Shown here: positions 8,290 through 29,290 of the stretch, one piece after another
Layout of the letters: every line of letters begins with the position of its first letter
Numbering within the stretch: the first letter of the stretch is position 1
Origin: an uncultured Verrucomicrobiae bacterium
GTDB lineage: Bacteria > Verrucomicrobiota > Verrucomicrobiia > Palsa-1439
Direction of reading: 5' to 3'
Assembly: GCA_963712025.1 (NCBI GenBank)
Contig: CAVQGJ010000011.1
Location: 455,929 to 519,928 of the forward strand
DNA length: 64,000 nt
The notes under the pieces: generated by a model
Told to the model about the DNA's origin: nothing
Seen by the model: the letters and a program-made list of their open reading frames with translations, nothing else
Database searches by the model: none
Program-made: the position numbers and the translations under genes

Positions 8290-10972
8290 CTATTGCGTCG
8301 TAATGTCGCCGTCCTGCAATTTCAGCGCCTTGACCTTGTCCGTTTGACGGTCCGACGAGTAATCGGTCGGCGGCTGCGTCGCGTTTGATTGGCTTGGCGC
8401 CGTTGTGTCGGTACTGTCGCTGCGGGGCGGCGGCGCCGCCTGGTTCGGCTGGTTCGGCGCCATCGAACCGATGCTGTCATTCCGTGGCGACTCGGCCTGA
8501 TTCGGTTGGGCTGGCGACATTGAACCGATAAAGTCCTTGGGCGGCAGCGCCGCGTTATTCGTCCCCGAACTACCCTTGGGGAAATACGTTTCTTCCAACT
8601 CTTCGCTCACGCCCAACATGCGCAGGCGGCGTTTGGCCTCGGCGACGGCCACCAGATCGGAGCGCAATACGACAGGGCGGATGAAGATGATCAGTTCGGT
8701 GCGCTGCCGGTTGTTCTGCTGGCTCTTGAATATCTGGCCGAAGAACGGAATGTCGCCCAGGAACGGCGTCTTGGTCGTCGATACCGACTTCGTCTGCTGG
8801 ATCATGCCGCCGAGAACAATGGTGCTTCGATCTTGCACCGCCAACGACGATTTCGCTTCCCTCTTGAGAATCGTGGGAACAATCGTGCCGCCGATGTTCA
8901 CGTTGGCCCCGAGATCGTTCACCTTCTGATTGATGTCCATCCGCACGTAGCCGTCGGGATTGATCCGCGGGGTCACGTCCAATTCGATGGCGACGTCCTG
9001 GTATTGGATACTGGAGGTCACGCCGTTGGCGGTCAACGTGCCCACGCCGCTGATGAGCGACGATGTCTGCGAGGTCGGCACGGGCACCGACTCGCCCACG
9101 ATGATGTCCGCCTCCTGGTTGTCCATCGTCTGGATCACCGGCGTCGAGAGCACTTTGCTGTTGGACGTGGTGGCGAGCGCGTGAAGCACCGCGTCGAGGT
9201 TCAAATTCCTAAACGTGGTAAAGTACGTAAGACCGCCCGCGCCCCCGGCCAAGGCCGCCGCGGTGGGCAAATTGCTGCTAATCGCGCTGAGCGGCGAGAG
9301 TTGAACGGGCGTATTCCCGTCGGTGCTGTTGCCGCCCGTCCCGGAATACTCGCCGGCCCGCGACAGCCGATTGAACAAATCCACGCCCACGTCCAGCTCA
9401 TTGTTGAGCGTCAGTTCGGCGATCACGACCTCGATTTGCACCTGGGCGACGGACGTGTCGATGCTTCTGACCAGTTCCTGGATGCGCGCCATGTCCTCCT
9501 TGGTCGCCATCACCAGCAGGCAATTCGTCCGCGGATCGGGCAGGATGTGGACGCCTTCCGAGTACTGCAGGAAACCCGTGTTCTGGCCGCCTGCTCCCCC
9601 GCCTCCGCCGCTCATGGGCGGTGGCGGTACGGACGGAGCGCGCGCGCCGGAGGTGGTCGTGCCGGTCGACGACGTGGTTCGCCGCGTCGAAGAAGACGAG
9701 GCAGGGGCCGATCCGCCCGTGATCAATGCGTTCAACAACCCGGCCACATCCTCGGCCGCGGCATAATTGAGCAGAATCACTTTCATCACGATATCGGGCT
9801 CGACCTTCGCATCCAACTCGGCAATGAGCCGGTCGAAAAACCCGAAATTACTTACCCGGGTCAATATGAACAGTTTGTTCGTCCGATCATCGGCTGCCAT
9901 GATGACCTTTCCCTCGACGACCGATTCTTCGCCGCCTTCGACCGTCGGACCCGTCTGGGCCGGTTGTCCGGGCCGGCGGATCGGAGATGGCGGTTGACCG
10001 GGCGCGGCGGCGTGGGCTCCTGCTTGCTCGGCTTCCTGGATGATGGACTGGAGCCGCGCCATGGCGTCGGCCGCTTTGGCGTGCTTGAGGACGTACGTCC
10101 GCATTTCCATCCGCAGGGCCGAGGGTTGATCGACGTAGGCGACAATCTCCATCATTTGTTTCAAGTTCGCCGCCGTCTCCGAGATCAGGATGCTGTTGGA
10201 ATCCTGGAGCGCCATCAACTGGCCATACGGGTGGAGGTACGGCTGCAGCACTGGAACAACATCCGATGCCTTGGCGTTCTTCAGCGGGATGATCTGCGTG
10301 CCCAAGGTGTCGGCCACCGTGGCCGCGGGCCCGACCGGCAGGCCTTCCTGCTTGGCCGTATTGATCTGGACGATCTTCAAGAACTTCTCGCCGAGGGGTA
10401 TCGCGGCGATGTTGTTGATCGCCAGCACGCTATCGAGGGCTTGAATCGCCTCGCCCTTGGTCAGCTTGGACTGACTGCGGAAATTGATCTGCGCGTTGAG
10501 GTTTGGCGCGGAGATGATCGAACGGCCCGTCAGCCGCGAATACCAGTCGAGAATCGCGGTAATGGGCGCTCCTTGGAATTCGAAATCGATGGTGGGCTTG
10601 GTCCGACGATGCGGTCGGACGAGCCGGTGCCGAGCGGCCGACCGAGGTGGCGGCGGCGGAGCCGGCGGTGCCGATTGCGCCGGCGTCGTGCCAACGGGGG
10701 CGACAGACCGGGCGTTGCGGAGGTTGCATGGGCGGCGGTGCCGGTGTGTTCGATTGTGGATGCAGGATGTCCAGAAGTTGCTTCGGCAGGCCATTAGTAG
10801 CTGTGGTTGCCTCATCGGTCGCGTCGGTGTCCGTTTCCTGGTCGGTATCGGTCTGGGAAACCGTGTTGGCTCCGTCGGCGGCGTACGCGACGCCACGTGA
10901 CCGGATTCCCGTTAGGATGGCCAGCCATGCCGATATGACTACACTCAATAAACTCAATCTCAGCTTTCTCAC
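8290..10972 (-). CDS. gspD: type II secretion system secretin GspD (frame broken near the 5' end)
   Basis: ORF 8290..10896 has N0/N1-type domains (TIDFEFQGAPITAILDWYSRLTG..) and a secretin domain (VLSTPVIQTMDNQEADIIVGESVPV..TKTPFLGDIPFFGQIFKSQQNNRQRTELIIFIRPVVL). The signal peptide MRKLRLSLLSVVISAWLAILTG is in another frame, starting at GTG 10972 behind a GGGGAGGA Shine-Dalgarno (SD) ribosome-binding site. The frame break lies at about 10640-10740. Confidence 0.85.
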
Positions 10973-11489
10973 TTATCCTCCCCGTCGAAACGGAATACGG
11001 CGAACACCCGGTTGGATGGGCATCGGCGATTGTGGTTGCCCGGGCTGACCCGGGGCCGGCGAGCCGGCGCGCCGCGCCAACTCCCGGTTTGGCCTCCAGC
11101 ATCAATGTGGCGACTTCCAGGTCCTGTTTCAGCACAAGCTTGGTCGGGCCATTCTCCGACTTTTCAATCTTTACCACCTTGACCGCGCCGATGCTTTCCC
11201 CTTCCGCCTTGAAATCAACGTGCTTGGTATCATTCTCCTGGATGATCGCCAGCAGCGGCTGGTCGTCACCCTCGCTGGCAATCCCCACGAACGTGAACCG
11301 TGTCGAAAAACTGGGTTGTTGGGCATCCTCGGGCAACTCGCCCATTTTCCCGAACGGCGCGCGATCCAGAATGATCTGGTACCGGGAAAAATCCCGCGTC
11401 GGCGGCTCCGCCCCGCCCAGCGGAACTCCGCTCAGCGCGACCGTTAGGGCGCAGAGGATCGCCAGATGCGTGCCGGTTCTCCCGCTCAC
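10973..11489 (-). CDS. PilP/GspC-position secretion-system accessory protein (frame broken near the 3' end)
   Basis: GTG 11489 overlaps the pilO stop (GTGA). Signal/anchor HLAILCALTVALSGVPLGGA. The natural-looking end ..PGQPGQPQSPMPIQPGVRRIPFRRGG-TAA (10975-10973), abutting the gspD GTG, is in the +1 frame. The break is at about 11055-11090. Confidence 0.5.
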
Positions 11490-12025
11490 GATTTCGCCCT
11501 GACTGTTTTGGCGGCGAGCGCCCGCACTTGAATATCGCACCGGAGAATACTCTGATTCTCCGTTCGCGGCGTGACCTGCAATTGCTCCACGCTTATGAAA
11601 CCGGCCGCGGTCTGCAGCTCAAACAGAAACCGCACCAGGGAATCCGTGGTCGCTTCGAGGGCCACCTGTTCCGGCAGCACACGATAGACACCCTTGTCCT
11701 CTTCCGCCATGGGACGACTGGAACTGATTTGCACCCCCGAACTCTTGGCGACGTCCAGGATCTTTTTGCCCACGTCTGAACTTTGTTGAAAGCTCTCGGC
11801 GCGCTGTCCCAGACTTTGCTTGAGTTCGTCATATTGTGTCTGCCACTGTTTTTCGTGATCGATCGTCGCCTCCATCACGGCCAGTAGCTGTTGCTGCGTC
11901 CTGAGCCGGTCGCCTGCCGACCGCCAATTCCGCAACAGCGGAACCACGACGAAATAATTCACGCCAAGGATGATCGCCGTAATGGTGATCACCAGCAGAT
12001 TGCGCTCTCGTTTCGTGACAGCCAT
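11486..12025 (-). CDS. pilO: PilO/GspM-like inner-membrane assembly protein
   Basis: 179 aa; N-terminal TM (LLVITITAIILGVNYFVVVPLL), coiled coil and periplasmic domain. Its position follows the PilN-type domain. Confidence 0.6.
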   Translation of the reverse strand: MAVTKRERNLLVITITAIILGVNYFVVVPLLRNWRSAGDRLRTQQQLLAVMEATIDHEKQWQTQYDELKQSLGQRAESFQQSSDVGKKILDVAKSSGVQISSSRPMAEEDKGVYRVLPEQVALEATTDSLVRFLFELQTAAGFISVEQLQVTPRTENQSILRCDIQVRALAAKTVRAKS

Positions 12026-12031
12026 AAAATA

Positions 12032-13454
12032 TCAGGGCGTTGCCCCCGTGGCAGCTTTTGAGAGTACAAGTGAGGCCAAATTTCGTCAAGCCGCCCGCCT
12101 CCGTGGCGGACCGTTCCGCCTCCACCTTCGAGAACAGGTCGCATTTCTCCAGTCGGCTCTGGAAATCGAGCGCCAGGGCCGGTGTCGGCGCCTGGCCCTT
12201 GATGGTGACCGCCAGGTCCTTCTTGTAGACGAACGACGTCAGTTTCACGTTGTCGGGCAGGAGTACCGCGACCTCGCGCAAGACCTCCAGGGCGGAAGAC
12301 TTCATGTCGAGTTGCTTGGACATGGCGAGCAACTCGCTCTGTAATGCCTTCGCCTTGTGAAACTCGGCCTGTCGCTTGTTGATTTCGTTGTCCAGCCGGT
12401 ACAGGCGTGAATTCCTCAACACCAGGAAAGGTCAGAAACACCGCCAACGCCGCCGCATAGACGACTGCCACCGCAATCGCCCCGCGAATCAGACGTTGCC
12501 GGAACGCCGCCGTCTGCCGTTTCTGACGCCATTCGTCCGGCAGCAGGTTCAAGGAGGGCGCTCCGCTGCCCGCGCATTCCAGACACAAGCTCAGCCCGGG
12601 CGACGGCACCGCGCCATTCGTCAGGAACGACGTCGCCGCGTTCAGTCCACTCGCCACCTTCTCGGCGAACAATTTCGACGGTTCATCCTGTGTCAGGAAG
12701 ATGACGTTGCCCCGGGCGCGTTGCGGCTGGCCGGCCTCGGCGGCCACGAACGTCCGTTGCAGTTCTTCCCGGAGAATCGATTCGGAATCCGCGCCCAGCA
12801 CAATGGACCGCACGGCCAGGATCACCTCGCGGGAATAGACGATCACGTCGGCCGTTGTCGGGCCAAGCATCACCAGCACGTTTCGGTTGTCGTCCGTCGC
12901 CAGCAGATTGCGTTTGCCCAACGCGCGAAACATCGCCAGGGCGTCGACCGAGACGATTTCCGCCTGCAGTCCCGCGGCTTCCAGTGCTTCCACGCGCTCA
13001 TTCACCGTCGCTTTCCGGGCGATGGCGACCAGCACGCGCGTCTGGCCGTCCACGATATCCAGCGGCTCGAAACTGTAGACAACCTCCTCCAGCGGCAAGG
13101 GGGTAATGTTGTCGATCTGAAGGTCGAGCATCTGTTTCAATTCCGCAGGGTCGGTCGCCGGCAACCGCAGGATCTGACAGAGCACATCACCGCAATTCAC
13201 CGCGGTCACGATGCGATGTTCGCCCGGATCGAACTGCTGGCGTAGCGATTGGGCGGCGTACTGCCATTGCAACGGCGCATCGGCAGCGGCTTCTGGCGGC
13301 GTCGCGCTGGCCGTTGCCTCCTGAACGACGGTGACCTCCGCGCCTTCCGCGCGCGCGGTGGTCAGTTCGAGACGGAACCTCCAAACGCCACCGCTGCCCA
13401 GCCGCGGGCGTGGCCGATGTGCGCCAGCTTGCGGGGATTGAGGCTCGGCCTCAC
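12032..13454 (-). CDS. pilM: PilM-PilN fusion (GspL-like assembly platform protein), at least 3 frame breaks
   Basis: GTG 13454 overlaps the gspK stop. A PilM-like region (..VLVAIARKATVNERVEALEAAGLQAEIVSVDALAMFRAL..) is followed by the TM helix GAIAVAVVYAAALAVFLTF. A PilN-type part (LVLRNSRLYRLDNEINKRQAEF..KLTSFVYKKDLAVTIKGQA) then continues in another frame. Breaks are at about 13365-13400, about 12423-12430 and in the T/A run 12056-12059. Confidence 0.6.
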
Positions 13455-14476
13455 GATGCCTCCCTCATTTCCTGCCACATCACGATCTCAATGTTGCCGT
13501 TATCACGGTGCACGGTGGCCAGGATCGTGTGCTTTACGCCGCCGACTTCACCCGTCGATCTGATGGTAAAAAACGAGGAGTTCACTGCCACCAGCCCCTG
13601 CACGGCATGGAGGGTCGCCGCATCAAGGTTGCCGACGGTCGCGAAAAACTCTTCAGCGCTGTGAAATGGAATGTCATCGTCCGTGCCCGGGATGCCGTCG
13701 GAGCCGTCCCGCCGGGCCAGCACGGCCTGCACCTGTACGTCATTGAGCCCGAGCCATCGCCTGCAGCACGATGGGCGGACGCCGTGTTCACGTTGACCTG
13801 ACCCGAGCTCATCGTGGTAAACACGTCGCCCAGTCCGGGTTGGGCCGGGTCTTTGTCGGTGGCGGGCGTTCCATGAAACAACTCCGGCGTCACGCCGCGG
13901 ACGAGCAGCAACTCATCCACCCGATCCATCGGCGCGTCTTTGGCACGATAGGGCGGCGACAGGCTCATGTAGTAATCCGACTTCGCGCCGTTCAGACGGG
14001 TGAGATCGCCCGGGCCGATCCAATCGAGAATGGAATCGACAATGATGTCGCCGTCCGACGGATCGACGTTGAGCAACGTCATCAACCGCTCCAATTGCAC
14101 TTGCGGATGCCGTGTTGATCGGCATCTTGGACTCTTCGTCCGTGATCTTCACGTTGAACACTCCGTCGCCCAGTTCATGGTTCACATACAACTCTTCGTT
14201 GGTCGCCCAGTCCTGATTGAGCGCGTCATAGGCGGCATCCGCCGCCGATTGCTGGTGCAGCAGCAATTGCATCTTCGCCACTTCAATTCCCGAACGCGCC
14301 AGCATCTCGGCTTTCAGCTCCTTGCGCGCGTAGGAGGCAAGCTGCGTCTCGACGTGCATGGTGAAGGCAAACCCGCTAATCAGCAAGGACAATACCATGA
14401 TCACCCACAGGACGATGACGATGGCCACTCCCCGCTGATCGTCGAGGCAACGGGTCCTTGCAGCGTCTCGGCTCAT
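13451..14476 (-). CDS. gspK: minor pseudopilin GspK (about 3 frame breaks)
   Basis: ATG 14476 overlaps the gspJ stop (ATGA). MSRDAARTRCLDDQRGVAIVIVLWVIMVLSLL..KMPINTASA | VQLERLMTLLNVDPSDGDIIVDSILDWIGPGD..VNVNTASA | ..VQAVLARRDGSDGIPGTDDDIPFHSAEEF. The pieces are spread over ORFs 13913..14728, 13582..14100 and 13451..13732. Confidence 0.65.
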
Positions 14477-15259
14477 GGCATCGACGAGCGTCCTCCCGTG
14501 ATCGAGCCGAAGGAATGCGGTGGCGGCGGTGGCGCTGCCGAATTGGTCGTGTTTCCTGTCTCCGTCAGACCGGTCTGACCGGGAATGGGAATACCTCCGG
14601 CGGCGACAAACGCGGCGACCGGAATGTCCACCGGGCGTGTGATGACGAGGGGCGGGAACCGACCGCCCCGCTCGCCAAAGACCACAGTGTACTCGACGGC
14701 CGACGGCGGAAACCCCTCCTCTTCCCACTTCTCGGACCAGCTCCCATCCCGCGGGTCACGGTACCGGACGTAGAACCCGCTGACATCCATCGAAATCACG
14801 TGAGCTTGCGGCGGCTCGAGAGACTTGTCGTCGTTCGGGCGCAATGCCGGTTCATTCACCAGGGCCAGATAGGTGCGCTGATACTGGTCCTGCTCCAGGG
14901 AAATGGTCACACGCCGCATGCCGGCCGAAACAGCTTCGCTCGGCGGCAGGAATGCGTCCGAAGCGGTGACGAAACTTATGCTGTCGCCGAGACCGGGGTT
15001 CTGGGTGGCGATGAAGGCGTACAGCGACGACGGATGGCTGAAAGAAGACCGCCGATTGCGTCAGTTCCATCAGCGCATCCATCACGATCCGTTGCCGCTG
15101 AAAGGCTTCGCTGGCATCGCTGCCGCGCTGCCAGGAGTTCAACGCCGCGCTCCACGTGCTGTACACGGCGGTGACAAGCATGCCGAGAATGGCGACGGCC
15201 AGCAAGACTTCCAGCAGCGTGAAGCCGGCCTGTGTTCCCTGTGAATGGCGTGATGGCAT
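14473..15259 (-). CDS. gspJ: minor pseudopilin GspJ (one frame break)
   Basis: ATG 15259: MPSRHSQGTQAGFTLLEVLLAVAILGMLVTAVY (prepilin motif). Continues as YAFIATQNPGLGDSISFVTASD..MRRVTISLEQDQYQRTYLALV in the frame of ORF 14473..14919. The break is at about 15025-15040 (T run). Confidence 0.65.
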
Positions 15260-15261
15260 AC

Positions 15262-15669
15262 TCAGTGTTCTTTGTCGGGCAGATACCGGAACTCGACGAC
15301 CGACTCGCTGACTTCTTTTCCCCGCTCGTACCAATACACAGTGATCGTTTGCTGCCACATGCCGTCGATGCCTGTGCCTTCGAATTTCCGCGACCATGAG
15401 TAGCCGGGGTAGTCATCGAACTTGCCCTCTTGATCGAGAATGTCCGTTGGCTGCTCCACGCGGAACTCGTAACTCTTGTTGGCCAGAAGGATGTCGGACA
15501 CCGTGTAGTTCTGGATGGAGCGCGCCGCGGCCACATCGCGGCCCAGGCATTCGAGAAGCCCAAACACACAGATCGCCAGGATAAACACCGCCAACAACAC
15601 CTCCAGCAGAAGGAAGCCGGCCTCGGTCCGTCCGTGTGTGGCAGGGTGATGTTGACAGAGGGATTTCAT
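15262..15669 (-). CDS. gspI: minor pseudopilin GspI
   Basis: ATG 15669 overlaps the gspH stop (ATGA). MKSLCQHHPATHGRTEAGFLLLEVLLAVFILAI prepilin-type N-terminus. 135 aa. Confidence 0.65.
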   Translation of the reverse strand: MKSLCQHHPATHGRTEAGFLLLEVLLAVFILAICVFGLLECLGRDVAAARSIQNYTVSDILLANKSYEFRVEQPTDILDQEGKFDDYPGYSWSRKFEGTGIDGMWQQTITVYWYERGKEVSESVVEFRYLPDKEH

Positions 15670-16199
15670 AGTTTGACCGGCCACAACATGCCCCGACAGG
15701 TCACGGGATCGACGACCACTTCCAACCCATTGCCTTTTTCGACGCCGCGGAGCGTTACCGCAAAAGCGTCGCACGTGCCGTTCGGGTAGAACGTGGCCTC
15801 AACCTGCCCTCGGCCCTGCGGCATGAGTTCTCCCAACTGGGCGGAGGATAGCCCGATGCGGGTGGGCATCGGGATTGTCTTGAGTACGTCCGCGTCGCTG
15901 GAGGAACCATCGGCGGTGTCGTTCGTGCTGGCGGCTTGCATCAGCCAGATCGTCTGACGGTCCATGTCGATGTAATAGCCCACGTTTCGCTGGTGCAGCA
16001 CGGCATTGAGCTTGGCGAACTCGCAACTCGTCGCGATCGTGCGCCCGGTCGCATTCAGGACCTCGGTGTTATACGAGCGCACGAAACTGGGGACGGTCAC
16101 GGCGATGATGATGGCGATGATGAACACCGCGATGCTCAACTCGATCAGCGTGAAACCGCTCTCGCGACGGCGTGCGTCATTGCCAGTTGCCAATATCAT
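15666..16199 (-). CDS. gspH: minor pseudopilin GspH
   Basis: MILATGNDARRRESGFTLIELSIAVFIIAIIIAV prepilin-type N-terminus. 177 aa. Confidence 0.6.
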   Translation of the reverse strand: MILATGNDARRRESGFTLIELSIAVFIIAIIIAVTVPSFVRSYNTEVLNATGRTIATSCEFAKLNAVLHQRNVGYYIDMDRQTIWLMQAASTNDTADGSSSDADVLKTIPMPTRIGLSSAQLGELMPQGRGQVEATFYPNGTCDAFAVTLRGVEKGNGLEVVVDPVTCRGMLWPVKL

Positions 16200-16620
16200 C
16201 TTCGTTCCCCGCGACGCCATCGGGACCGGGCGAGGACAGGTCGTAGCTGGTCGTATTATGCGTGCCCGGATTCTGGTAGATATAATCATGGTTCCAAGGG
16301 TCCTTGCGGATGACCGGTGGCTTCAGATACGGGCCTTTCCAGTTGCCCGGCACCGGTGTGCTGCTTGGCGCCACGATCAGCGCTTGCAGCCCTTGCTCGG
16401 TGTTCGGCAATATCCCGTTGTCCAATTCATACAAATCGAGCGCCGCCGAAAAGTTGTGGATTTGATCCTGTGCCGCCGTCTTCTTGGATTCCCCGATCTT
16501 GGGCGCCAGATTCACGACGGCCACGCCGACGAGCATGCTGATGATGATCACCACCAGGAGGATTTCCAGGAGCGTGAACCCCGCCTCCGCACTACGATTG
16601 TGTTGGGGTCTGTTATTCAT
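16177..16620 (-). CDS. gspG: major pseudopilin GspG
   Basis: MNNRPQHNRSAEAGFTLLEILLVVIIISMLVGVAVVNL..DPWNHDYIY. GspG-type size and motifs. Confidence 0.8.
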   Translation of the reverse strand: MNNRPQHNRSAEAGFTLLEILLVVIIISMLVGVAVVNLAPKIGESKKTAAQDQIHNFSAALDLYELDNGILPNTEQGLQALIVAPSSTPVPGNWKGPYLKPPVIRKDPWNHDYIYQNPGTHNTTSYDLSSPGPDGVAGNEDDIGNWQ

Positions 16621-16636: not shown

Positions 16637-17854
16637 TCACTTTCCAATTCCCGACGTGATGGAGAATACCGCCATCAATATGCTCATGACGATACCGCCG
16701 ACGACAACCGCCATGATAATGATAATCACGGGCTCAAGCAACGTCGTGAATATCTTCAGCATCCGCGAGAGTTCCTGCTCGTAGGCGTCGGCGATATTCT
16801 TGAGCGCGGGCACGACCGCGCCGCTCTCCTCCCCGACCGCCAGCATGTCGATGAGCAACGGCGGGAACACCTTGCCCTTGCTGAGCGGTTGGCTGATGCT
16901 TGTGCCGTCGGTCACCCGGGTGCGCGCCTCGCGAATCTCGTTCGCGATGACGCGGTTGGTCATGGTGTCCTCGACAATCTGCAGGGCCGTGAGCACGGGC
17001 ACGCCGTTTTCCAACAGCGTCGCCAGGGTCCGCGCGAACTGGGCCAGCGCGTTGGCCATCAGGATGTTCCCGAAGACCGGCAGCCGCAACTTCAGGACGT
17101 CGAGCGCCAACTTCCCCTCCGGGGTTCGGGCGCGAATCCGATAGACCGTCACCCCCGCGACAGCCAGAAGAACCCCGATCCACCAATAGGCCACGAACTT
17201 GTCGCTGATCCAGATGAGGCACCGGGTCGGCAATGGCATGGTGGTGCCCATTTCCTTGAACATGGCCGAGAACCGCGGCACCATGACCAGCATGAAGAAA
17301 ATAATCGTGCAGATGCCGACCGCGACAATAATCAACGGGTAAATCAGGGCGCCAACAACTTTCTCGCGCACCTCGGCCATCTGCTCCTGATGTTTTCCCA
17401 GACGCAGGAGCACGTCGTCCAAAGAGCCACTGGCTTCACCCGCCTTGATCAGGTTCACAAAGAAGCGGGAGAAAACCTTGGGGTGCTTCGACAGCGAATC
17501 CGACAGGCTCTCGCCCTGGACGATGCCATTCCGCAATTCACTCAGGATGGCCCCCAGCGCCCTCTTTTGCGACCGTCGTTCCAGGGTGCCAAGCGCCTGG
17601 CTCAGCGACATACCGGATTTCAGGAGACTGGACAATTGCTGGGTGAACATGAGCACATCACGGGACTTGACCCGGTTGCCCAAGCTGCTGGCCTTGTCCT
17701 GGGCCAGTTGATCCGCCTCGGCCGAATCCACCGCCAGCGGGAAGAACCCCAGTTTGCTCAGCTCCGCCAATGCCGCGCGACGGTCGCCCGCAGCGAGAGA
17801 CCCGTTCACGACTTCGCCAGCGCGCGTCTTGGCTTTGTATTGGAACGTCGGCAT
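16637..17854 (-). CDS. gspF: type II secretion system inner-membrane platform protein GspF
   Basis: 405 aa; duplicated GspF/PilC domain architecture (..LSSLLKSGMSLSQAL.. and ..LATLLENGVPVLTAL..). Confidence 0.9.
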   Translation of the reverse strand: MPTFQYKAKTRAGEVVNGSLAAGDRRAALAELSKLGFFPLAVDSAEADQLAQDKASSLGNRVKSRDVLMFTQQLSSLLKSGMSLSQALGTLERRSQKRALGAILSELRNGIVQGESLSDSLSKHPKVFSRFFVNLIKAGEASGSLDDVLLRLGKHQEQMAEVREKVVGALIYPLIIVAVGICTIIFFMLVMVPRFSAMFKEMGTTMPLPTRCLIWISDKFVAYWWIGVLLAVAGVTVYRIRARTPEGKLALDVLKLRLPVFGNILMANALAQFARTLATLLENGVPVLTALQIVEDTMTNRVIANEIREARTRVTDGTSISQPLSKGKVFPPLLIDMLAVGEESGAVVPALKNIADAYEQELSRMLKIFTTLLEPVIIIIMAVVVGGIVMSILMAVFSITSGIGK

Positions 17855-17956: not shown

Positions 17957-19684
17957 TCACGTGCCGGTCAGTTCTTCGTCTTCCTGCGTGACCCGCGCGA
18001 TTTCTTCCACGGTCGTCATGCCCTGGCGGACCTTGTCCCACCCGTCATCGCGGAGGGTCTTCATCCCCTGGCTGATCGCCATTTGCTTGATGGCGCTGGA
18101 CGAGGCGCGTTCGATAATCAAGGGCCGCAACGCCTCGGACATCACGAGGATTTCGTAGATGGCCGAGCGCCCCTTGAATCCGGTAAACCGGCACTCTTCG
18201 CAGCCGCGCCCCCGGTAGAACTTCACCTTGCCAATGTCCTGGGCGGGAAACCCGACCTCGTGGAGAAATTCAGGTCCGGGTTTGTACTCCTCCTTGCACG
18301 CCTTGCAATTCGTCCGGATCAGGCGCTGGGCAATCAACGCCTCGACCGACGAACTCACCAGAAACGGCTCGATGCCCATGTCGATCAACCGCGTGATCGC
18401 GCCGGGCGCGTCGTTCGTGTGGAGCGTCGAGAACACCAGATGGCCCGTCAGCGCCGCGCGAATGGCGATCTCCGCCGTTTCCAGGTCGCGCACTTCACCA
18501 ACCATGATCACGTCGGGGTCCTGCCGCAAAATGTGGCGCAGGCCGCTGGCAAACGTCAGCCCGATTTCCGACTTCACCGAAATCTGGTTGACGCCGGGCA
18601 GTTCGTATTCGACGGGCTCCTCGATGGTGATGATTCGCTGGTCAATCGAGTTGATCGTGCTCAGAAACGCGTACAACGACGTGGATTTGCCCGAACCGGT
18701 TGGCCCCGTGACGAGGATGATCCCGTGCGGCATATCAATCAGTTTGCGGATGATCTTTTCCTCCTCCTTGTTCAGGCCCAAACTCTCGAGCCCGAGAAAG
18801 ATGCTGCTGCGCGTCAGCAACCGCAAACTGACGCTTTCCCCGTAGGCGGTCGGAATGGTCGAGACACGCACGTCGATTTCCGCGCCGCTGCTGCGGACGT
18901 TGATGCGACCGTCCTGCGGGAGGCGGCGTTCGGCGATGTCCATGTTGGACATGACCTTGATGCGTGAGATGATCGCGGCCTGGAACCGTTTCAGGTGCGG
19001 CGGCACGGGCGTCTGGTGCAACACGCCGTCTACGCGATAGCGGATGCGCAGGTCGTTCTCCATCGGTTCCATGTGAATGTCGGTCGCCCGCTCCTTGTAC
19101 GCCTCCCCGATGATCTGGTTCACAAATTTGACGACGCTCGCCTCTTGGTCGCCGCTTTCCAAATCGTCCTTCGTCACTTCGGCGATCTCGTCGATGTCCA
19201 GCACGTTCTTCTGCAACAGCTCGTCCAGTGTCTCCGCGCCAACCCCGTAATAGCGTTTCAGGGCCTTGGCGATGTCGGCCTGGGTGCACAAGGCCAGTTG
19301 GACGCGCGATTTGGTCACGAGCCGGACGGCTTCGAGCATGGTGAGATTGAACGGATCATGGGCGGCCACCAGTAGCGTCCCGTTCTCGGCGCGCATCGGC
19401 ATGACGTTGTGCTGGAACACTACCTTGGTCGGGACCTTCTGGCGCGCGACCGCGTCGATCTCTTTGTCGGTGATCCGCGTGAACGGCAGGTGCAGCGCCT
19501 GGGCCAGAGCTTGGAGCAGCTTCTCTTCGGGCGCGACTCCCGATTTCACCAGCGTAGTGATGAGCGGCTGCGCGGCTGACTGCGGGGCCGACAGCGCCTC
19601 GGAAATCTGCTTTTCCGTGAAAAGTCCCGTCTGCTGAAGCAGTTGCCGCAGATCCACCGGTATTGTGTCGACAGTCGCTACCAT
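17957..19684 (-). CDS. gspE: type II secretion / type IV pilus assembly ATPase GspE
   Basis: Start moved to ATG 19684 (MVATVDTIPVDL..). Walker A VTGPTGSGKSTSLY. Tetracysteine CKACK..CEEC. GspE/PilB N-terminal domain. Confidence 0.9.
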   Translation of the reverse strand: MVATVDTIPVDLRQLLQQTGLFTEKQISEALSAPQSAAQPLITTLVKSGVAPEEKLLQALAQALHLPFTRITDKEIDAVARQKVPTKVVFQHNVMPMRAENGTLLVAAHDPFNLTMLEAVRLVTKSRVQLALCTQADIAKALKRYYGVGAETLDELLQKNVLDIDEIAEVTKDDLESGDQEASVVKFVNQIIGEAYKERATDIHMEPMENDLRIRYRVDGVLHQTPVPPHLKRFQAAIISRIKVMSNMDIAERRLPQDGRINVRSSGAEIDVRVSTIPTAYGESVSLRLLTRSSIFLGLESLGLNKEEEKIIRKLIDMPHGIILVTGPTGSGKSTSLYAFLSTINSIDQRIITIEEPVEYELPGVNQISVKSEIGLTFASGLRHILRQDPDVIMVGEVRDLETAEIAIRAALTGHLVFSTLHTNDAPGAITRLIDMGIEPFLVSSSVEALIAQRLIRTNCKACKEEYKPGPEFLHEVGFPAQDIGKVKFYRGRGCEECRFTGFKGRSAIYEILVMSEALRPLIIERASSSAIKQMAISQGMKTLRDDGWDKVRQGMTTVEEIARVTQEDEELTGT

Positions 19685-19743
19685 CACATTTTCACCTCTA
19701 CGATATGAGACACCACATTCCTTGTCAATGGCACAAGAAATCG

Positions 19744-19763
19744 GGTAGTGTCCTAATTTGAAA
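19744..19763 (+). repeat. left terminal inverted repeat GGTAGTGTCCTAATTTGAAA (flanked by TSD AGAAATCG at 19736-19743)
   Basis: Exact reverse complement of 32020-32039. The tip matches the IS1-family end consensus GGnnnTG. Confidence 0.85.
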
Positions 19764-20165
19764 ACTTCGCATAGCAGGGTCAATCAGGCCCATGGCAAGA
19801 AAAGGCCAACATTCCCCCATCCTGACCCCAGCCTTATTGACTGGAAGCGAATCGACAAGGGCATTCTGCATGAGGTGCGCGTCCTGCGAGCCAACGGCAT
19901 CGAGACGACGGAATCCTGTCAGGGCGGACACGGGCATCCGTTCCCGGAGCCTACGGTGCGATTCTGCGGTGGAGAAGCCGCCGGATGGTTTGCGCTTGGC
20001 ATCGCGATGCAAGAGCGCCTAGCGGTGAACGAGCTTCGGAGAATCTGGCGCATTATTGATGGCGTGCCCACTGGCCCGGAATGGGAAATAACATTCGATC
20101 ATCCCGGTGTCGGGCCATGCCCGGTGGATAGAGGAGACGGGAAAGCCACTTGGCGCTGGCGCTAA
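19758..20165 (+). CDS. hypothetical protein (up to 135 aa; start uncertain)
   Basis: ORF with a TTG start inside the left TIR and no early ATG. ..GIETTESCQGGHGHPFPEPTVRFCGGEAAGWF.. No recognised domain. Confidence 0.4.
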   Translation: MKTSHSRVNQAHGKKRPTFPHPDPSLIDWKRIDKGILHEVRVLRANGIETTESCQGGHGHPFPEPTVRFCGGEAAGWFALGIAMQERLAVNELRRIWRIIDGVPTGPEWEITFDHPGVGPCPVDRGDGKATWRWR

Positions 20166-20169
20166 AGCC

Positions 20170-20394
20170 CTACTTGCCTTTTCGGTCTAGCTCATTGCAA
20201 TCGTCACACAACGGTTTCCCGCCCGTACCCTTCCGTCGATTGTGCGGAGGTATCTCACTGCCCGGTCCGCATTTTGGGTTGTCGTGATGGTGTTTCTCTT
20301 TTACGGAATACCACGTATTTTTCCCGGCGTGCTTGGCGATGGAAAGCCCGCTTCCCAATCCTTTGGAGCGGTTGCCCGCTGGCTTGTTTTTCAT
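20170..20394 (-). CDS. small Cys/His-containing hypothetical protein (74 aa)
   Basis: MKNKPAGN..KHHHDNPKCGPGSEIPPHNRRKGTGGKPLCDDCNELDRKGK. Resembles a widespread family of small GTGGK..C..C proteins. Confidence 0.5.
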   Translation of the reverse strand: MKNKPAGNRSKGLGSGLSIAKHAGKNTWYSVKEKHHHDNPKCGPGSEIPPHNRRKGTGGKPLCDDCNELDRKGK

Positions 20395-20457
20395 GCGGGC
20401 TGTTATCGCGCCATGCGGACGCCTAGACAACCAGAAAAGCGAACACCCCGGCATCCA

Positions 20458-20721
20458 TCATTCCCTCTGGATGTTGACATTCGCTCCGCCATCGGAAGTG
20501 ACCACACAAATCAGCCTTCCGGTCTCCTCGCTCCTGTTGTTCTCCCATTGGACCGGACGTAAGCCTCTCCGGTCGATTTCCCATCCGAAGCCCGACTCGT
20601 GGTTTCCGTGCTCGCTGCGCACAATCCACGCGCCGCATTCGTCTTTACGCGCTTTGGCCGGGTCATGGCTTGCTACCGTATCGCCATTTCTCCACGCTTG
20701 CTCTATCAAATCCTCATCCAC
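20458..20721 (-). CDS. HNH-endonuclease-like small protein, catalytic core apparently deleted
   Basis: ..RKDECGAWIVRSEHGNHESGFGWEIDRRGLRPVQWENNRSEETGRLICVVTS. The family normally reads GWEIDH-about 15 aa-NLRPLQWENN. Confidence 0.55.
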   Translation of the reverse strand: MDEDLIEQAWRNGDTVASHDPAKARKDECGAWIVRSEHGNHESGFGWEIDRRGLRPVQWENNRSEETGRLICVVTSDGGANVNIQRE

Positions 20722-20904
20722 AGTAGCCTCCCGTGTGACACATGATTACTGGGTAGTCGAAACGCGAAGGCCCGGCCATCCAACCTGACCGGAAGCCAAG
20801 TCCGGGGGAAGGACAGCCGAGCCGTCGCAGTCAGAGCCTACGAGCCTTCCGAATTGCTGTCAACACCATCACGCAACTCAGCGGCTTGGGCTGGTAGCCG
20901 GATT

Positions 20905-21132
20905 TCATCGGCGGTTCTTCTTTCGCTTTGGAGCGGAAAAATCCCGAGCAGGCATCCACACCGCATCCATTTTCGGCTTCTTGTCCGGTGCCGACATACC
21001 GATGAGTCTCAGCGACCGGAAGGCAGCCTCCTTGTCGCGGAATGCGGCCAGCGGGCGATACTCGCCATCGTACAGGGCCGAAATCACGTACACTTTCTTC
21101 GTCGGTACGATTGGAATTAGTTGGTTGCTCAT
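20905..21132 (-). CDS. small hypothetical protein (75 aa)
   Basis: ATG 21132 lies 4 nt after the stop of the upstream TPR gene. MSNQLIPIVPTKKVYVISALYDGEYRPLAAFRDKEAAFRSL.. Confidence 0.5.
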   Translation of the reverse strand: MSNQLIPIVPTKKVYVISALYDGEYRPLAAFRDKEAAFRSLRLIGMSAPDKKPKMDAVWMPARDFSAPKRKKNRR

Positions 21133-21135
21133 GCT

Positions 21136-21741
21136 TCATCCTCCTTGGCCTTGGCGATGGTCTGTCGTCAATCCATTGCCAACACTGTCTCGCAACTCAG
21201 CGGCTTGTTGGCATGTCTCTGCTGATTCTCGGATTCGGCCAAGCCGAAACAGAATCTTGCCACGGTGGTTTATCACACGGGCCGCGTCCTTGCGCATTTC
21301 GGGATATGGATTTGCGCTCATCAATTCACGGTAGAGCCGGATGGATTCGTCCACCGTTTTCAATGCCTCATCGAACCGATTCAGTTGAAACAGCGCATCG
21401 GCTTTGGTCGATAACGCATAAGCGATGTCGATTCGGTACTGAGTAGCGCCCGCCTCGACCGCCTTCCGGTAATTGTTAATGGCGGCATCGTTGCTTGCCA
21501 CTGATTCTTCGTACTGCATAAGGCGAAACAGAACTTCGCCAGCATAGTATTGAGTCTGAGCCAAATCGGTTACGGATTCGACCCCACCATCTCGTGCGAG
21601 CCGCTCGAAAATTTCCGACGACTCATGGAATCGCTCAAGCGCCTCTTTGTAAGAATCCCCATCAATACACTTCAAGCCGTCACGGGCCGCCGCAACAGCG
21701 CCATCACGGATAGCTGCGTGGTCTTTGATAGTTTCAGCCAT
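21136..21741 (-). CDS. TPR-like helical repeat protein (201 aa), cassette A
   Basis: Paralog of 22786-23292 (shared ..VASNDAAI..AGxxxYxIxIAYALSTxADALxxLNRFxExL..). C-terminus CQQAAELRD. Confidence 0.6.
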   Translation of the reverse strand: MAETIKDHAAIRDGAVAAARDGLKCIDGDSYKEALERFHESSEIFERLARDGGVESVTDLAQTQYYAGEVLFRLMQYEESVASNDAAINNYRKAVEAGATQYRIDIAYALSTKADALFQLNRFDEALKTVDESIRLYRELMSANPYPEMRKDAARVINHRGKILFRLGRIRESAETCQQAAELRDSVGNGLTTDHRQGQGG

Positions 21742-21760
21742 GTTACATACCTCCTAGCAT

Positions 21761-22264
21761 CTAGCGGACAAAGGTGTGTCCTCCCCATCCGCGCCGGTGG
21801 CGTCGCCCAAATTCCGCCTCGGCCAGTTTGTCGCACCAATCTGTGCGGCCTGATTCAACCAGTGTGCGGATAGCTCGCGCTGCGTCGGAGTACGACTGCT
21901 CGGCGCTAACGCCACACGCCGCATTGGAGCGAGCGTCTATCAAGAATGCGATGGCCGCAGATTCGTCTGTGTCACGAGCGTTGTCCCATGTCTCGCGCCA
22001 TCCACCGTTTTTGACGCGCTCCCGACACGATGGACAAGCCCACACCCCTTCAATGCGATTAGCCTCGCGGATGTCGAGTCGGCCCGGGCAGAATTCACAG
22101 AATCGGAACGGTTGCTGTTCCAGCGCCTTCGCGCCAGCCGTGCCTAGACAGCACAAGCAAATGAATTCACTCCGACCAGCAACGGTCGGGTGTGTCTGCA
22201 TGTGATTCCATTGGCCCCGATAGAGACCGACCTTGCCGCAGAGTTGGCAGACCTGCGAACCCAT
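21761..22264 (-). CDS. Cys-rich (multi zinc-ribbon-like) hypothetical protein (167 aa), first gene of cassette A
   Basis: CQLCG..CLCC..CEFCPG..CPSC motifs. Directly preceded by structured leader copy A. Confidence 0.55.
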   Translation of the reverse strand: MGSQVCQLCGKVGLYRGQWNHMQTHPTVAGRSEFICLCCLGTAGAKALEQQPFRFCEFCPGRLDIREANRIEGVWACPSCRERVKNGGWRETWDNARDTDESAAIAFLIDARSNAACGVSAEQSYSDAARAIRTLVESGRTDWCDKLAEAEFGRRHRRGWGGHTFVR

Positions 22265-22284
22265 CTTGTCCCGTTTCCCTTCCT

Positions 22285-22466
22285 GCGATCAGGACAAACA
22301 GAAACCGCGCTCGGTCAGGAACGCGGTTCAATCTGCGTGGAGTTACTGTTCGGACGGTCATTCGCCGCCCGCACATCGACCGGAGCAACTTACTCTGGTC
22401 AAGCCACCGTGGGACTCCCGCCCCGGTTGGCAGATTCGGCTTTCACCGAATCGTTCCTGATGCTGG
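22285..22466 (-). ncRNA. candidate structured 5' leader RNA, copy A (ends in a terminator-like hairpin 22303-22328 plus a U-rich tract)
   Basis: About 85-90% identical to 24046-24257. Several hand-foldable hairpins. Promoter immediately upstream, RBS and ATG about 20 nt downstream. Confidence 0.55.
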
Positions 22467-22470
22467 CGCG

Positions 22471-22498
22471 ATTATACACCACGCCGTCGCTGAGTCAA
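22471..22498 (-). promoter_or_regulatory. sigma70-like promoter for leader A
   Basis: Minus strand TTGACT (22498-22493), 16-nt spacer, TATAAT (22476-22471). The conserved leader begins 5 nt downstream. Confidence 0.55.
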
Positions 22499-22505
22499 GC
22501 TCGGA

Positions 22506-22760
22506 TTAGAGCATCTCGACTTGATTGCTTCTTACACCATCCGCTTTTGGACTGGCAAACGGGTCTATGCGCGGCGGACAATCGAGGCGTTCAGTCTTGT
22601 TCAACAAGCCCTCGATGGTGAGAATCTGAACACGCGGATAGTCCTTGTCACTCCACAGTTTTGATGTGTAGCAGTTTGCCTCCACTGCTTCCAATTTCAT
22701 CTTCGACGTTGGCGGGTCGAGTGTGATGAGCACGCCCGCCTTGAACCCCTGATTGCCCAT
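22506..22760 (-). pseudogene. C-terminal fragment of a DNA methyltransferase
   Basis: ..KAGVLITLDPPTSKMKLEAVEANCYTSKLW..YPRVQILTIEGLLNKTERLDCPP. This is the typical C-terminus of N6/N4 methylases, and no upstream catalytic part is present. Confidence 0.55.
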
Positions 22761-23292
22761 GTCTGCCTCGCACGACTGACGAAACCTGGCGGATGGATTC
22801 CTCCACGACTGTCAACGATTCCTTGAATCGATTCAAGCGATACAAGGCATCGGCATTGGTGGACAGCGCGTAAGCAATGTGGATTTCGTACTCGCTCTGG
22901 CCTGCGTTGACCAATTCCTGCCACAACCGGATGGCCGCGTCGTTGCTGGCGACACATCCCTCGTACTTGGCGTTGTGGAAGAAGCCTTCGCCCGTGTCAT
23001 AGTGCGCCTCCGCCAAATCGCAGGCGAATTCGGCATGGCCGCGATTGACCAGCCGCTTGAATACTTTCAATCCCCTTCGGAAACACGCGAGCGCCTCTTT
23101 GTGGTGACGGTCATGGAGCAACTTCAACCCTTGCGTCATCACGTCTGCCGCGTCATTTCGCTCTTGTTCTGACACAATCTTGTCGGCCATCTGGTTAGCG
23201 AACGCCTCGAATTCGGCTTTCGTGGCACCGCCGCTAATGAATCCAAGCGGCACCATGTCCGGTGTTTGGATGAATGGGGGGTTAGGATTCAT
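22648..23292 (-). CDS. TPR-like protein, cassette B second gene, truncated and fused into the methylase remnant
   Basis: ATG 23292 (MNPNPPFIQ..). Paralogy to 21136-21741 stops after ..TVVEESIRQ (about 22786). The remaining ORF reads out of frame across the methylase fragment. Confidence 0.5.
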   Translation of the reverse strand: MNPNPPFIQTPDMVPLGFISGGATKAEFEAFANQMADKIVSEQERNDAADVMTQGLKLLHDRHHKEALACFRRGLKVFKRLVNRGHAEFACDLAEAHYDTGEGFFHNAKYEGCVASNDAAIRLWQELVNAGQSEYEIHIAYALSTNADALYRLNRFKESLTVVEESIRQVSSVVRGRHGQSGVQGGRAHHTRPANVEDEIGSSGGKLLHIKTVE

Positions 23293-24025: not shown

Positions 24026-24045
24026 GATGCACCCTGTCCTTTCTC

Positions 24046-24257: not shown

Positions 24258-24261
24258 ACAG

Positions 24262-24290
24262 AGAATATCAGGTAACAGATTCGATTGCAA
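24262..24290 (-). promoter_or_regulatory. sigma70-like promoter for leader B
   Basis: Minus strand TTGCAA (24290-24285), 17-nt spacer, TATTCT (24267-24262). Confidence 0.45.
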
Positions 24291-24296
24291 GCGAAT

Positions 24297-29198: not shown

Positions 29199-29226
29199 AT
29201 CGCACCTCTATTCTTTATGGGATTTA

Positions 29227-29272: not shown

Positions 29273-29290
29273 AAACTTTTCTTTTGTGCT

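What the first reader, a model, noticed from the sequence alone, without database searches (positions are those of the whole stretch)
10640..15260. Dense cluster of frame breaks in the distal half of the T2SS operon (gspJ, gspK, pilMN, PilP-like, gspD 5' end)
At least 9 single-base frame disruptions fall within about 4.7 kb:
- gspJ at about 15030.
- gspK at about 14100, about 13780 and about 13750.
- pilMN at about 13380, about 12425 and about 12057.
- The PilP-like gene at about 11070.
- The gspD signal-peptide region at about 10700.

Each break separates pieces that join into a normal protein. Examples are INTASA|VQLERLMTLL, AVFLTF|LVLRNSRLY, and TLK|AATGATP-stop placed exactly before the pilO ATG. 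Several lie in short homopolymers.

The density is about 2 per kb, against roughly 0.15 per kb elsewhere. gspE, F, G, H, I and the gspD core are intact.

Either this stretch had poor read support, or the operon is genuinely decaying. Decay might follow the transposon insertion 60 nt upstream of gspE.
Basis: partly seen in the sequence, partly recalled or inferred. Interest (0 to 1): 0.5.

Follow-up and report, generated by a model that had tools for sequence, protein, structure and literature searches.

The report
Assembly indel errors in a secretion operon
Eleven single-base frame breaks really are packed into 4.4 kb of a Verrucomicrobia type II secretion operon, but the evidence says they are consensus errors of a long-read metagenome assembly, not a decaying operon, so the finding is ordinary.

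Summary
I find 11 frame-shifting indels between 10597 and 15031, in gspJ (1), gspK (3), pilMN (3), the PilP-like gene (1) and the gspD 5' end (3). There are none in gspE-gspI, the gspD core or about 10 kb of other comparable coding DNA.

The breaks are most likely consensus errors.
- All ten short-read-derived relatives have every gene intact.
- One-base edits restore full-length proteins with the stop codons in the conserved places.
- After frame correction, dN/dS equals that between intact relatives, and the window's branch carries no excess substitutions.
- Nine of the 11 breaks are +1-type, as are three further breaks in housekeeping genes (tig, ugd, a DUF1573 gene).
- The source contig is 586 kb.
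- Sister Nanopore-only MAGs carry their own private one-base insertions.
- A k-mer-assembled contig 98% identical to the window differs by one gap in 1,164 nt, and that gap is the window's extra base in gspJ.
- Two breaks are shared with a noisy long-read contig whose gspK allele diverged under purifying selection, so they cannot be inherited frameshifts.

The transposon upstream of gspE is real (12.3 kb, 19-bp inverted repeats, 9-bp duplication) but leaves a promoter-like site in place. Reads were not available, so this remains inference.

The parts
17957..19687 (-). gspE (ATPase), intact, 576 aa
   Evidence: ORF. Pfam T2SSE and MshEN. No window-specific indel.
16637..17854 (-). gspF, intact, 405 aa
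   Evidence: Logan contig L132 is 99.9% identical with no gap over 16116-17887.
16177..16620 (-). gspG major pseudopilin, intact, 147 aa
   Evidence: PF08334. The exact protein is also present on a 586,188-nt contig.
15666..16220 (-). gspH, intact
   Evidence: Pfam GspH and N_methyl.
15262..15669 (-). gspI-like minor pseudopilin, intact, 135 aa
   Evidence: tblastn in one frame. No Pfam hit.
14473..15265 (-). gspJ-like minor pseudopilin, split by one extra base at 15028-15031
   Evidence: Removing one base restores 263 aa. Logan contig L133 (98% identical) lacks exactly this base and encodes an intact 261-aa protein.
13451..14476 (-). gspK, split by +1 at 14103/4, +1 at 13776 and +1 at 13754-13757
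   Evidence: Removing three bases restores 340 aa, 91% identical to L081 GspK. Pfam T2SSK family for its relatives.
12032..13478 (-). pilM-pilN fusion gene (GspL-like role), split by -1 at 13374-13380, +1 at 12428-12431 and -2 at 12055
   Evidence: Pfam PilM_2 and PilN on the corrected protein.
11486..12025 (-). pilO / GspM-like gene, intact, 179 aa
10973..11489 (-). PilP-like gene, split by +1 at about 11067-11071, so its stop is lost and the ORF runs into gspD
   Evidence: No Pfam hit. The break lies in a Pro/Gly-rich stretch whose length varies among relatives.
8290..10972 (-). gspD secretin. The N-terminal signal and Pro-rich region is broken by +1 at 10707, -1 at about 10637-10640 and +1 at 10597. 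The core from 10596 down is intact.
   Evidence: Three-frame reading against relatives.. Pfam N0, Secretin_N and Secretin.
10597..15031 (-). The error patch: 11 indels in 4,434 nt with sharp edges
   Evidence: It coincides with the zone where a conspecific long-read contig (L134) differs from the window by 3-10%. In the flank at 16.6-21.4 kb the two are 97-100% identical.
19700..19728 (-). Sigma-70-like promoter match (TTGACA-17-TATCGT) between the transposon end and gspE
   Evidence: This is a consensus match only. It lies in the 57 nt that are conserved in all relatives.
19745..32039 (.). 12.3-kb transposon with 19-bp perfect terminal inverted repeats (GTAGTGTCCTAATTTGAAA) and a 9-bp target duplication (AGAAATCGG). 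It is context for the finding, not part of the broken genes.
   Evidence: with the empty site in L004.. Lower GC. IS1-like DDE transposase at 28368-29198 and remnants of a type ISP restriction-modification gene at 24475-26879.

Best explanation
The 11 frame breaks are consensus indel errors in a long-read (Nanopore-type, Flye-like) metagenome-assembled contig. In the organism the genes gspJ, gspK, pilMN, the PilP-like gene and gspD are most likely intact and functional.

Why the errors cluster is inferred, not shown. This 4.4-kb stretch is where co-existing conspecific strains carry moderately divergent alleles (3-10%), while the flanking gspE-gspF region is nearly identical between them. In such a stretch the strain's own read depth is effectively low, and reads of the other allele can be recruited during consensus and polishing. 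That leaves draft-quality sequence of about 2.5 indels per kb. The rest of the contig is well polished, at about 0.06 breaks per kb.
For: 1. Ten short-read-derived contigs of related species, 77-90% nt identical overall, have every gene full length. They have no private frame-shifting indels outside length-variable or intergenic stretches.

2. Single-base edits restore full-length proteins that align end to end with relatives. Their stop codons and start overlaps sit in the conserved places, and no internal stops appear.

3. Selection is not relaxed. After frame correction, dN/dS of the window's genes is 0.24-0.28 for gspJ, 0.13-0.29 for gspK and 0.16-0.23 for pilMN. Intact relatives compared with each other give 0.18-0.29, 0.14-0.26 and 0.17-0.20. 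In a relative-rate count the window's branch has 48 non-synonymous and 61 synonymous changes in the affected genes. The sister branch has 45 and 72. If 11 indels had arisen neutrally at a ratio of one indel per 5-10 substitutions, 55-110 extra substitutions would be expected. That is rejected at P between 2e-7 and 2e-18. The ratio is from general knowledge of bacterial mutation spectra.

4. The direction is biased. Nine of the 11 breaks are +1-type. So are all three breaks elsewhere in the window, which hit housekeeping genes: trigger factor, UDP-glucose dehydrogenase and a DUF1573 gene (by frame arithmetic).

5. The data type fits. The exact intact proteins and broken fragments of this window sit on one 586,188-nt contig held by NCBI and ENA. 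Sister MAGs of the Microflora Danica long-read set (L002, L004, L034) carry their own private one-base insertions in similar non-homopolymer contexts, at other positions of the same operon. That set was assembled from Nanopore reads only, with metaFlye and one round of Medaka. [quoted passage not shown]

6. There is one direct comparison. Logan contig L133, from run ERR11523672, is 98% identical to window 14331-15494. Its only gap in 1,164 nt is the window's extra base at 15031, and its gspJ is intact. The same run yields L132, which is 99.9% identical to the window with no gaps.

7. The conspecific long-read contig L134 (ENA ERZ25039529 contig_14694) is riddled with indels everywhere. Its gspE is in four pieces and its gspF in three. 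It shares the window's extra base at 15031 and 14103, but its alleles there are 6-10% divergent from the window's. Downstream of 14103 the two gspK alleles differ by 16 non-synonymous and 26 synonymous changes (dN/dS 0.18, P = 1e-6 against neutrality). A frameshift inherited by both is therefore excluded, and the sharing points to a recurrent artefact.

8. The patch has sharp edges. The probability of no event in either 4.3-4.7 kb flank at the patch rate is about 1e-5. The patch coincides with the zone of 3-10% divergence from L134.
Against: - No reads or coverage were available, so nothing is shown at read level.
- Only one of the 11 sites (15031) could be compared with a near-identical sequence from an independent kind of assembly. 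That contig is 98% identical, not 100%, so it may be another strain.
- Three sites (15031, 14103, 12055) are shared with L134, which also carries the transposon. I cannot show whether L134 comes from the same read pool (cross-recruitment of reads) or from another sample (context-specific systematic error).
- My test for 'union of two haplotypes' signatures at the insertion sites was not significant: 2 of 8 sites, P about 0.15 against simulated insertions.
- Local diversity among relatives is elevated only at the three gspD sites.
- A real transposon sits just upstream, which gives decay a plausible trigger.
- Insertion bias is not what is usually described for Nanopore consensus errors, which are more often described as homopolymer deletions. 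This is from general knowledge.
Confidence: 0.84

Rival explanations
1. Genuine, very recent pseudogenisation. After the transposon landed upstream of gspE the operon lost its use or expression, and the distal genes began to accumulate real frameshifts.
For: - The transposon is real and recent, with perfect 19-bp inverted repeats and a perfect 9-bp duplication.
- The conspecific contig L134 shares both the transposon and three of the indels.
- The breaks are confined to one operon segment.
Against: - There is no excess of substitutions and no rise in dN/dS on the window's branch. Eleven indels with essentially no accompanying substitutions do not fit a neutral mutation spectrum.
- Decay of a silenced operon should also hit gspE-gspI and the gspD core. 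All 11 events fall in 39% of the operon (P = 6e-4).
- There are no nonsense codons and no larger deletions. The bias towards insertions is opposite to the deletion bias known for bacterial pseudogenes (general knowledge).
- The indels shared with L134 sit on alleles that diverged under purifying selection.
- L133 lacks the gspJ insertion although it is closer to the window than L134 is.
- A promoter-like site is retained, and intact relatives have unrelated DNA at the same junction.
- tig and ugd carry the same kind of break.
Confidence: 0.08
2. A mixture. A few breaks are real polymorphisms of this species, in particular the -2 at 12055 in the last eight codons of pilMN and perhaps 15031 and 14103, which are shared with L134. 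The rest are consensus errors.
For: - Three sites are shared by two long-read contigs far more often than chance allows, given about one indel per 400 nt in L134.
- 12055 lies in an Ala-codon repeat where another lineage (L003) has a 3-nt deletion. A tail change there would cost little.
Against: - For 14103, and less strongly for 15031, the alleles carrying the shared base diverged under purifying selection.
- L133 lacks 15031.
- No independent non-long-read sequence supports any of the breaks.
Confidence: 0.07
3. The genes are naturally split or are read by programmed frameshifting.
For: None beyond the neat joins.
Against: All short-read relatives, and hundreds of homologues, have single uninterrupted genes at these positions. 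The break sites have no slippery or conserved motif.
Confidence: 0.01

Closest known systems
Residual indel errors in Nanopore-only metagenome-assembled genomes (metaFlye plus one round of Medaka, as in the Microflora Danica long-read MAG catalogue, PMC12313526)
   Same: - The contig is long (586 kb).
- The indels are private one-base events that split otherwise conserved genes.
- The same phenomenon appears at other positions in sister MAGs of that catalogue (L002, L004, L034) and, much more densely, in the conspecific contig L134.
- Short-read assemblies of the same clade lack it.
   Different: - The errors here are strongly clustered (2.5 per kb in 4.4 kb against 0.06 per kb elsewhere).
- Most are insertions outside long homopolymers, whereas the paper discusses long homopolymers and low coverage.
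- I could not confirm that the window belongs to that catalogue.
Operon decay (pseudogenisation) after insertion of a mobile element
   Same: A real transposon lies next to the operon, and several frame disruptions lie in neighbouring genes.
   Different: There is no relaxed selection, no nonsense codons or deletions, and no spread over the whole operon. The bias is towards insertions. The candidate promoter is retained.
Type II secretion / type IV pilus-like hybrid operons of Verrucomicrobiota (GspE-F-G-H-I-J-K with PilM-N fusion, PilO/GspM, PilP-like gene and GspD secretin)
   Same: The gene content and order are conserved in more than 30 related loci, and the Pfam domains match.
   Different: Nothing unusual in this window once the frames are corrected.

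Membership tests
Long-read consensus indel artefact | Orthologous genes are intact in independent assemblies made from accurate (short) reads | tested here: met
   Ten short-read-derived loci have full-length gspJ, gspK, pilMN, pilP and gspD. Logan contig L133, 98% identical, has an intact gspJ.
Long-read consensus indel artefact | The frame-corrected sequence shows the same purifying selection as intact orthologues, with no accompanying substitutions | tested here: met
   dN/dS. Relative-rate count of 109 against 117 changes. Poisson tests.
Long-read consensus indel artefact | The source is a long-read assembly, and sister assemblies of that type show the same kind of error | tested here: met
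   The source contig is 586,188 nt. Private one-base indels occur in L002, L004, L034 and L134 but not in short-read loci. The assembly method is given in PMC12313526. The sequencing platform of the window itself is inferred, not read from a record.
Long-read consensus indel artefact | Raw reads do not support the indels, or depth is locally low or mixed | not testable with these tools
   No reads or coverage are available. This is the decisive missing test.
Pseudogene / decaying operon | The reading frame is disrupted relative to functional orthologues | tested here: met
   Eleven frame-shifting indels.
Pseudogene / decaying operon | Relaxed selection: dN/dS rising towards 1 and excess lineage-specific substitutions | tested here: not met
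Pseudogene / decaying operon | A mixed spectrum of lesions (nonsense codons, larger deletions, deletion bias) spread over the unselected unit | tested here: not met
   Only 1-2 nt indels, and 9 of 11 are +1-type. No stop appears after correction. None fall in gspE-gspI or the gspD core.
Pseudogene / decaying operon | Lesions shared among conspecifics in a way that fits the genealogy | tested here: not met
   15031 and 14103 are shared with L134, which is 6-10% divergent there, under dN/dS of 0.18-0.43. 15031 is absent from the closer L133.
Type II secretion system operon | GspE ATPase, GspF platform, GspG major pseudopilin, minor pseudopilins GspH-K, assembly-platform proteins and GspD secretin in one cluster | tested here: met
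   Pfam T2SSE, T2SSF, T2SSG, GspH, N_methyl, T2SSK, PilM_2 with PilN, T2SSM/PilO, and Secretin with N0. No GspC or prepilin peptidase was looked for.
Programmed frameshift / naturally split genes | Break points conserved in orthologues | tested here: not met
   No short-read relative has any of the breaks.

The most novel reading that the evidence does not exclude
The frame breaks are real. In this peat Verrucomicrobia population the distal half of the T2SS operon is being inactivated right now by a localised process that makes almost only +1 insertions. For example, error-prone repair or recombination between divergent pseudopilin alleles of co-existing strains could do this. Some lesions (15031, 14103, 12055) would already be spreading between strains by gene conversion.
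Probability: 0.05. Interest if true: 0.5.

Novelty: not a real feature. Interest (0 to 1): 0.1.

Why it matters
It matters mainly as a caution. The public record of this 586-kb contig annotates the pieces as separate small proteins. An automated survey would therefore score this genome as lacking a functional T2SS, or as carrying pseudogenes.

The case also shows that errors in long-read MAGs can be locally dense, about 40 times the contig's background. Here the dense patch falls where conspecific strains carry divergent alleles. Per-genome error averages therefore understate the risk for individual loci.

If the breaks were real, they would show an operon caught at the first moment of decay. 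The evidence is against that.

Tried and rejected
1. Same-strain sequence across every break.
- Exact-protein look-ups for GspF, PilO, GspI, GspE (two start codons) and a downstream ORF found nothing usable.
- The GspG look-up gave only L132. The 586-kb contig could not be read.
- Three homologue searches found no conspecific intact or partial protein: corrected GspK, a 185-aa GspK segment spanning three breaks, and a 187-aa PilMN segment spanning two breaks. The best hits were 91-92% and 85% identical.
- The members of the GspD cluster are all C-terminal fragments.

2. Errors sit where relatives are most diverse. This holds only for the three gspD sites. The other eight sit at average diversity, and the MFD MAG indels show no enrichment (P = 0.24).

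3. Each insertion is the union of two co-existing haplotypes. Sites 13757 and 12431 fit exactly, and 15031, 13776 and 13375 look similar by eye. But 2 of 8 sites against a 9% rate for simulated random insertions gives P of about 0.15, so this is not established.

4. A chimeric patch from another species. Rejected, because L081/L009 stay the nearest relatives in every segment.

5. A common sequence motif at the insertion sites, such as a methylation motif. Three sites share TCCG, but no consistent motif emerged by inspection. This was not tested statistically.

6. A GC3 and codon-usage scan for frame breaks elsewhere. It is crude, and only the candidates confirmed by Pfam or by reading were kept. 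Candidates inside the transposon (about 22780, and 25000-25400) were not resolved.
Full report
WHAT IS THERE

The window comes from a Verrucomicrobiia genome. Its relatives are MAGs and metagenome contigs from peat, bog and soil. The closest, L081 from a peat metagenome, is 90% identical in DNA.

A type II secretion-like operon runs along the minus strand from 19687 to 8290. Its genes are:
- gspE, gspF, gspG, gspH and a gspI-like gene;
- gspJ-like and gspK;
- a pilM-pilN fusion, and pilO/gspM-like;
- a PilP-like gene and the secretin gspD.

These identities rest on the ORFs and the Pfam matches. The order is collinear in more than 30 related loci.

I aligned the operon with 13 relatives. I ran tblastn with the closest relative's proteins. 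I also read the gspD 5' end in three frames. Together these give 11 indels that only the window has and that shift the frame:

| Gene | Position and type |
|---|---|
| gspJ | 15028-15031 (+1) |
| gspK | 14103/4 (+1), 13776 (+1), 13754-13757 (+1) |
| pilMN | 13374-13380 (-1), 12428-12431 (+1), 12055 (-2) |
| PilP-like | about 11067-11071 (+1) |
| gspD | 10707 (+1), about 10637-10640 (-1), 10597 (+1) |

Removing or adding single bases restores full-length proteins. These are GspJ (263 aa), GspK (340 aa), PilMN (481 aa) and the PilP-like protein (171 aa), plus a continuous GspD N-terminus. Their stop codons and start overlaps fall exactly where relatives have them.

There are no such indels in the following stretches:
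- gspE to gspI (4.7 kb);
- the gspD core and the genes downstream of it (4.3 kb);
- the uvrD-like region at 32-38 kb.

Elsewhere in the window I confirmed three breaks:
- trigger factor at about 43880 and UDP-glucose dehydrogenase at about 49900, each with its Pfam domains split across two frames;
- a DUF1573 gene at about 56400.

The patch therefore has 2.5 breaks per kb against 0.06 per kb elsewhere. That is far beyond chance, and the edges are sharp.

ERROR OR DECAY?

No reads were available, so I used evolutionary and comparative tests.

1. Selection. With frames corrected, dN/dS of the window against four relatives matches the values among intact relatives, gene by gene. I polarised changes with outgroups. 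In the affected genes the window's branch has 48 non-synonymous and 61 synonymous changes, and the sister L081 branch has 45 and 72. Bacterial mutation spectra give roughly one indel per 5-10 or more substitutions (general knowledge). Eleven neutral indels should therefore come with 55-110 extra substitutions, mostly non-synonymous. That is rejected at P between 2e-7 and 2e-18. A small excess of about 16 non-synonymous changes is within noise. It would also fit a modest rate of substitution errors.

2. Spectrum. Nine of the 11 breaks are +1-type, as are all three breaks in housekeeping genes. There are no nonsense codons and no larger deletions. Real bacterial pseudogenes show a deletion bias (general knowledge).

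3. Distribution. If the operon had been silenced, gspE-gspI and the gspD core should be hit too. All 11 events lie in 39% of the operon (P = 6e-4).

4. Data type.
- The window's exact proteins, including the broken fragments, are on record on one contig of 586,188 nt held by NCBI and ENA.
- Three sister MAGs of the Microflora Danica long-read catalogue (L002, L004, L034; contigs named contig_N) carry their own private one-base insertions. These occur in similar non-homopolymer contexts at other positions of the same operon.
- The ten short-read-derived loci carry no private frame-shifting indels outside length-variable or intergenic stretches.
- That catalogue was assembled from Nanopore reads only, with metaFlye and one round of Medaka. 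[quoted passage not shown]

5. A direct comparison. The 90% cluster of the window's gspJ C-terminal fragment holds a 261-aa Logan protein.
- Its contig L133, from run ERR11523672, is 98% identical to window 14331-15494.
- The single gap in 1,164 nt is the window's extra base at 15031.
- The same run gives L132, which is 99.9% identical to the window over gspF-gspG with no gaps.

6. A second long-read contig. The gspK N-terminal fragment clusters with a fragment from ENA assembly ERZ25039529, contig_14694 (L134).
- L134 is conspecific. It is 97-100% identical to the window from gspF through 1.7 kb of the transposon.
- Across gspH-gspK it is only 79-94% identical, and from pilMN to the gspD 5' end 95-97%.
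- It is full of indels everywhere, with gspE in four pieces and gspF in three.
- It shares the window's indel at 15031, 14103 and 12055, but not at the six other sites it covers.

This sharing is not chance, but it cannot be inheritance either. Downstream of 14103 the two gspK alleles differ by 16 non-synonymous and 26 synonymous changes (dN/dS 0.18, P = 1e-6 against neutrality). Downstream of 15031 the gspJ alleles give dN/dS 0.43 (P = 0.013). L133 is much closer to the window than L134 is, yet it lacks the 15031 base. Two long-read consensus sequences therefore carry the same extra base on divergent alleles, while a k-mer assembly of a near-identical allele does not. That is what a recurrent technical artefact looks like.

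WHY THE ERRORS CLUSTER (INFERENCE)

The patch from 10.6 to 15.0 kb matches the zone where the conspecific L134 differs from the window by 3-10%. In the flank from 16.6 to 21.4 kb the two are 97-100% identical.

In a mixed population, reads of both strains support the shared flanks. In the divergent zone the strain's own depth is lower, and reads of the other allele can be recruited. The consensus there stays at draft quality. L134 has about one indel per 400 nt throughout, which is the same density as the window's patch.

At sites 13757 and 12431 the window's sequence is exactly the merge of two haplotypes seen among relatives. For example, GACC-TTCC and GAC-TTTCC merge to GACCTTTCC. Three more sites look similar. 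My formal test was not significant, though (P about 0.15). Local diversity explains only the gspD sites. I therefore present the strain-mixture mechanism as the likeliest cause, not as shown.

THE TRANSPOSON

- Window 19745-32039 is flanked by perfect 19-bp inverted repeats and a 9-bp target duplication. L004 shows the empty site.
- It carries an IS1-like DDE transposase, remnants of a type ISP restriction-modification gene and three TPR paralogues.
- A sigma-70-like match (TTGACA-17-TATCGT) lies in the 57 conserved bases between its end and gspE.
- Relatives with intact operons have 0-4.3 kb of unrelated DNA at this same junction.

The insertion therefore need not silence the operon.

VERDICT

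The best explanation is local consensus error in a long-read MAG (confidence about 0.84). Genuine recent decay and a mixed case together keep about 0.15. This is not a biological feature, and its interest is low. Read mapping would settle it.

Noticed in passing
window 19745-32039: A 12.3-kb transposon with perfect 19-bp terminal inverted repeats (GTAGTGTCCTAATTTGAAA) and a 9-bp target duplication (AGAAATCGG). It is inserted between a uvrD-like gene and gspE, and the empty site is seen in L004. Its GC content is lower than its surroundings. It carries an IS1-like DDE transposase (28368-29198), fragments of a type ISP/IIG restriction-modification gene (24475-26879), three TPR paralogues (21136-24025) and several unknown ORFs. 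The conspecific contig L134 shares its left end.
   Followed up: partly
window ~43803-43894 (tig), ~49900-49995 (ugd), ~56395-56414 (DUF1573 gene): Three more +1-type frame breaks in otherwise ordinary genes. Trigger factor lies in a tig-clpP-clpX cluster. UDP-glucose dehydrogenase has its NAD-binding domain split across two frames. The third is a DUF1573 lipoprotein-like gene. They are probably the same kind of consensus error.
   Followed up: partly
window ~13400-16200 vs L134 5200-8000: Within one species, the gspH-gspI-gspJ-gspK segment exists as alleles only 79-94% identical, while the flanking gspE-gspF are 97-99% identical. In the most divergent bin, L134's allele is closer to another species' allele (L002/L004) than to the window's. 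This suggests recombination or diversifying selection on the minor pseudopilins.
   Followed up: partly
window 19742-19745 / 32040-32111 and the matching junction in L001-L007, L081, L084, L088: Homology of all relatives to the window ends at the same point about 57 nt upstream of gspE. Between that point and the uvrD-like gene, different relatives hold 0 to about 4.3 kb of unrelated DNA, including large ORFs of 761-1322 aa. This looks like an insertion hot spot or a variable cargo site next to the secretion operon.
   Followed up: no
window 24475-26879: The restriction-modification gene inside the transposon is in at least three pieces: the start of an N6_Mtase domain, an unassigned middle piece, and a Type_ISP_C domain. 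It is much shorter than a full type ISP enzyme. Whether this is truncation, decay or more consensus error was not resolved.
   Followed up: no
window ~22780: The TPR paralogue at 22648-23310 loses similarity to its neighbour paralogue (21136-21741) near its C-terminus, and an abutting ORF (22506-22811) may continue it. This may be another frame break.
   Followed up: no
L002 (13448-15239 and 10632-10748 in window coordinates), L034 (16621-19668), L004 (12540, 7127): Public long-read MAGs of sister species have their own private one-base indels in this operon. In L002 they also concentrate in gspI-gspK. L134 shares insertions with L002 near 14549 and 13878.
   Followed up: partly
window 61851-62524: A small PIN-domain-like ORF (135 aa) with an overlapping upstream small ORF looks like a VapBC-type toxin-antitoxin pair.
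   Followed up: no
L133 vs window 14331-15494: Of the 24 differences between the window and the 98%-identical Logan contig, about 19 are derived in the Logan contig, and the window keeps the state seen in outgroups. The asymmetry is unexplained. The window may be a population-majority consensus, or L133 may be a distinct strain.
   Followed up: partly
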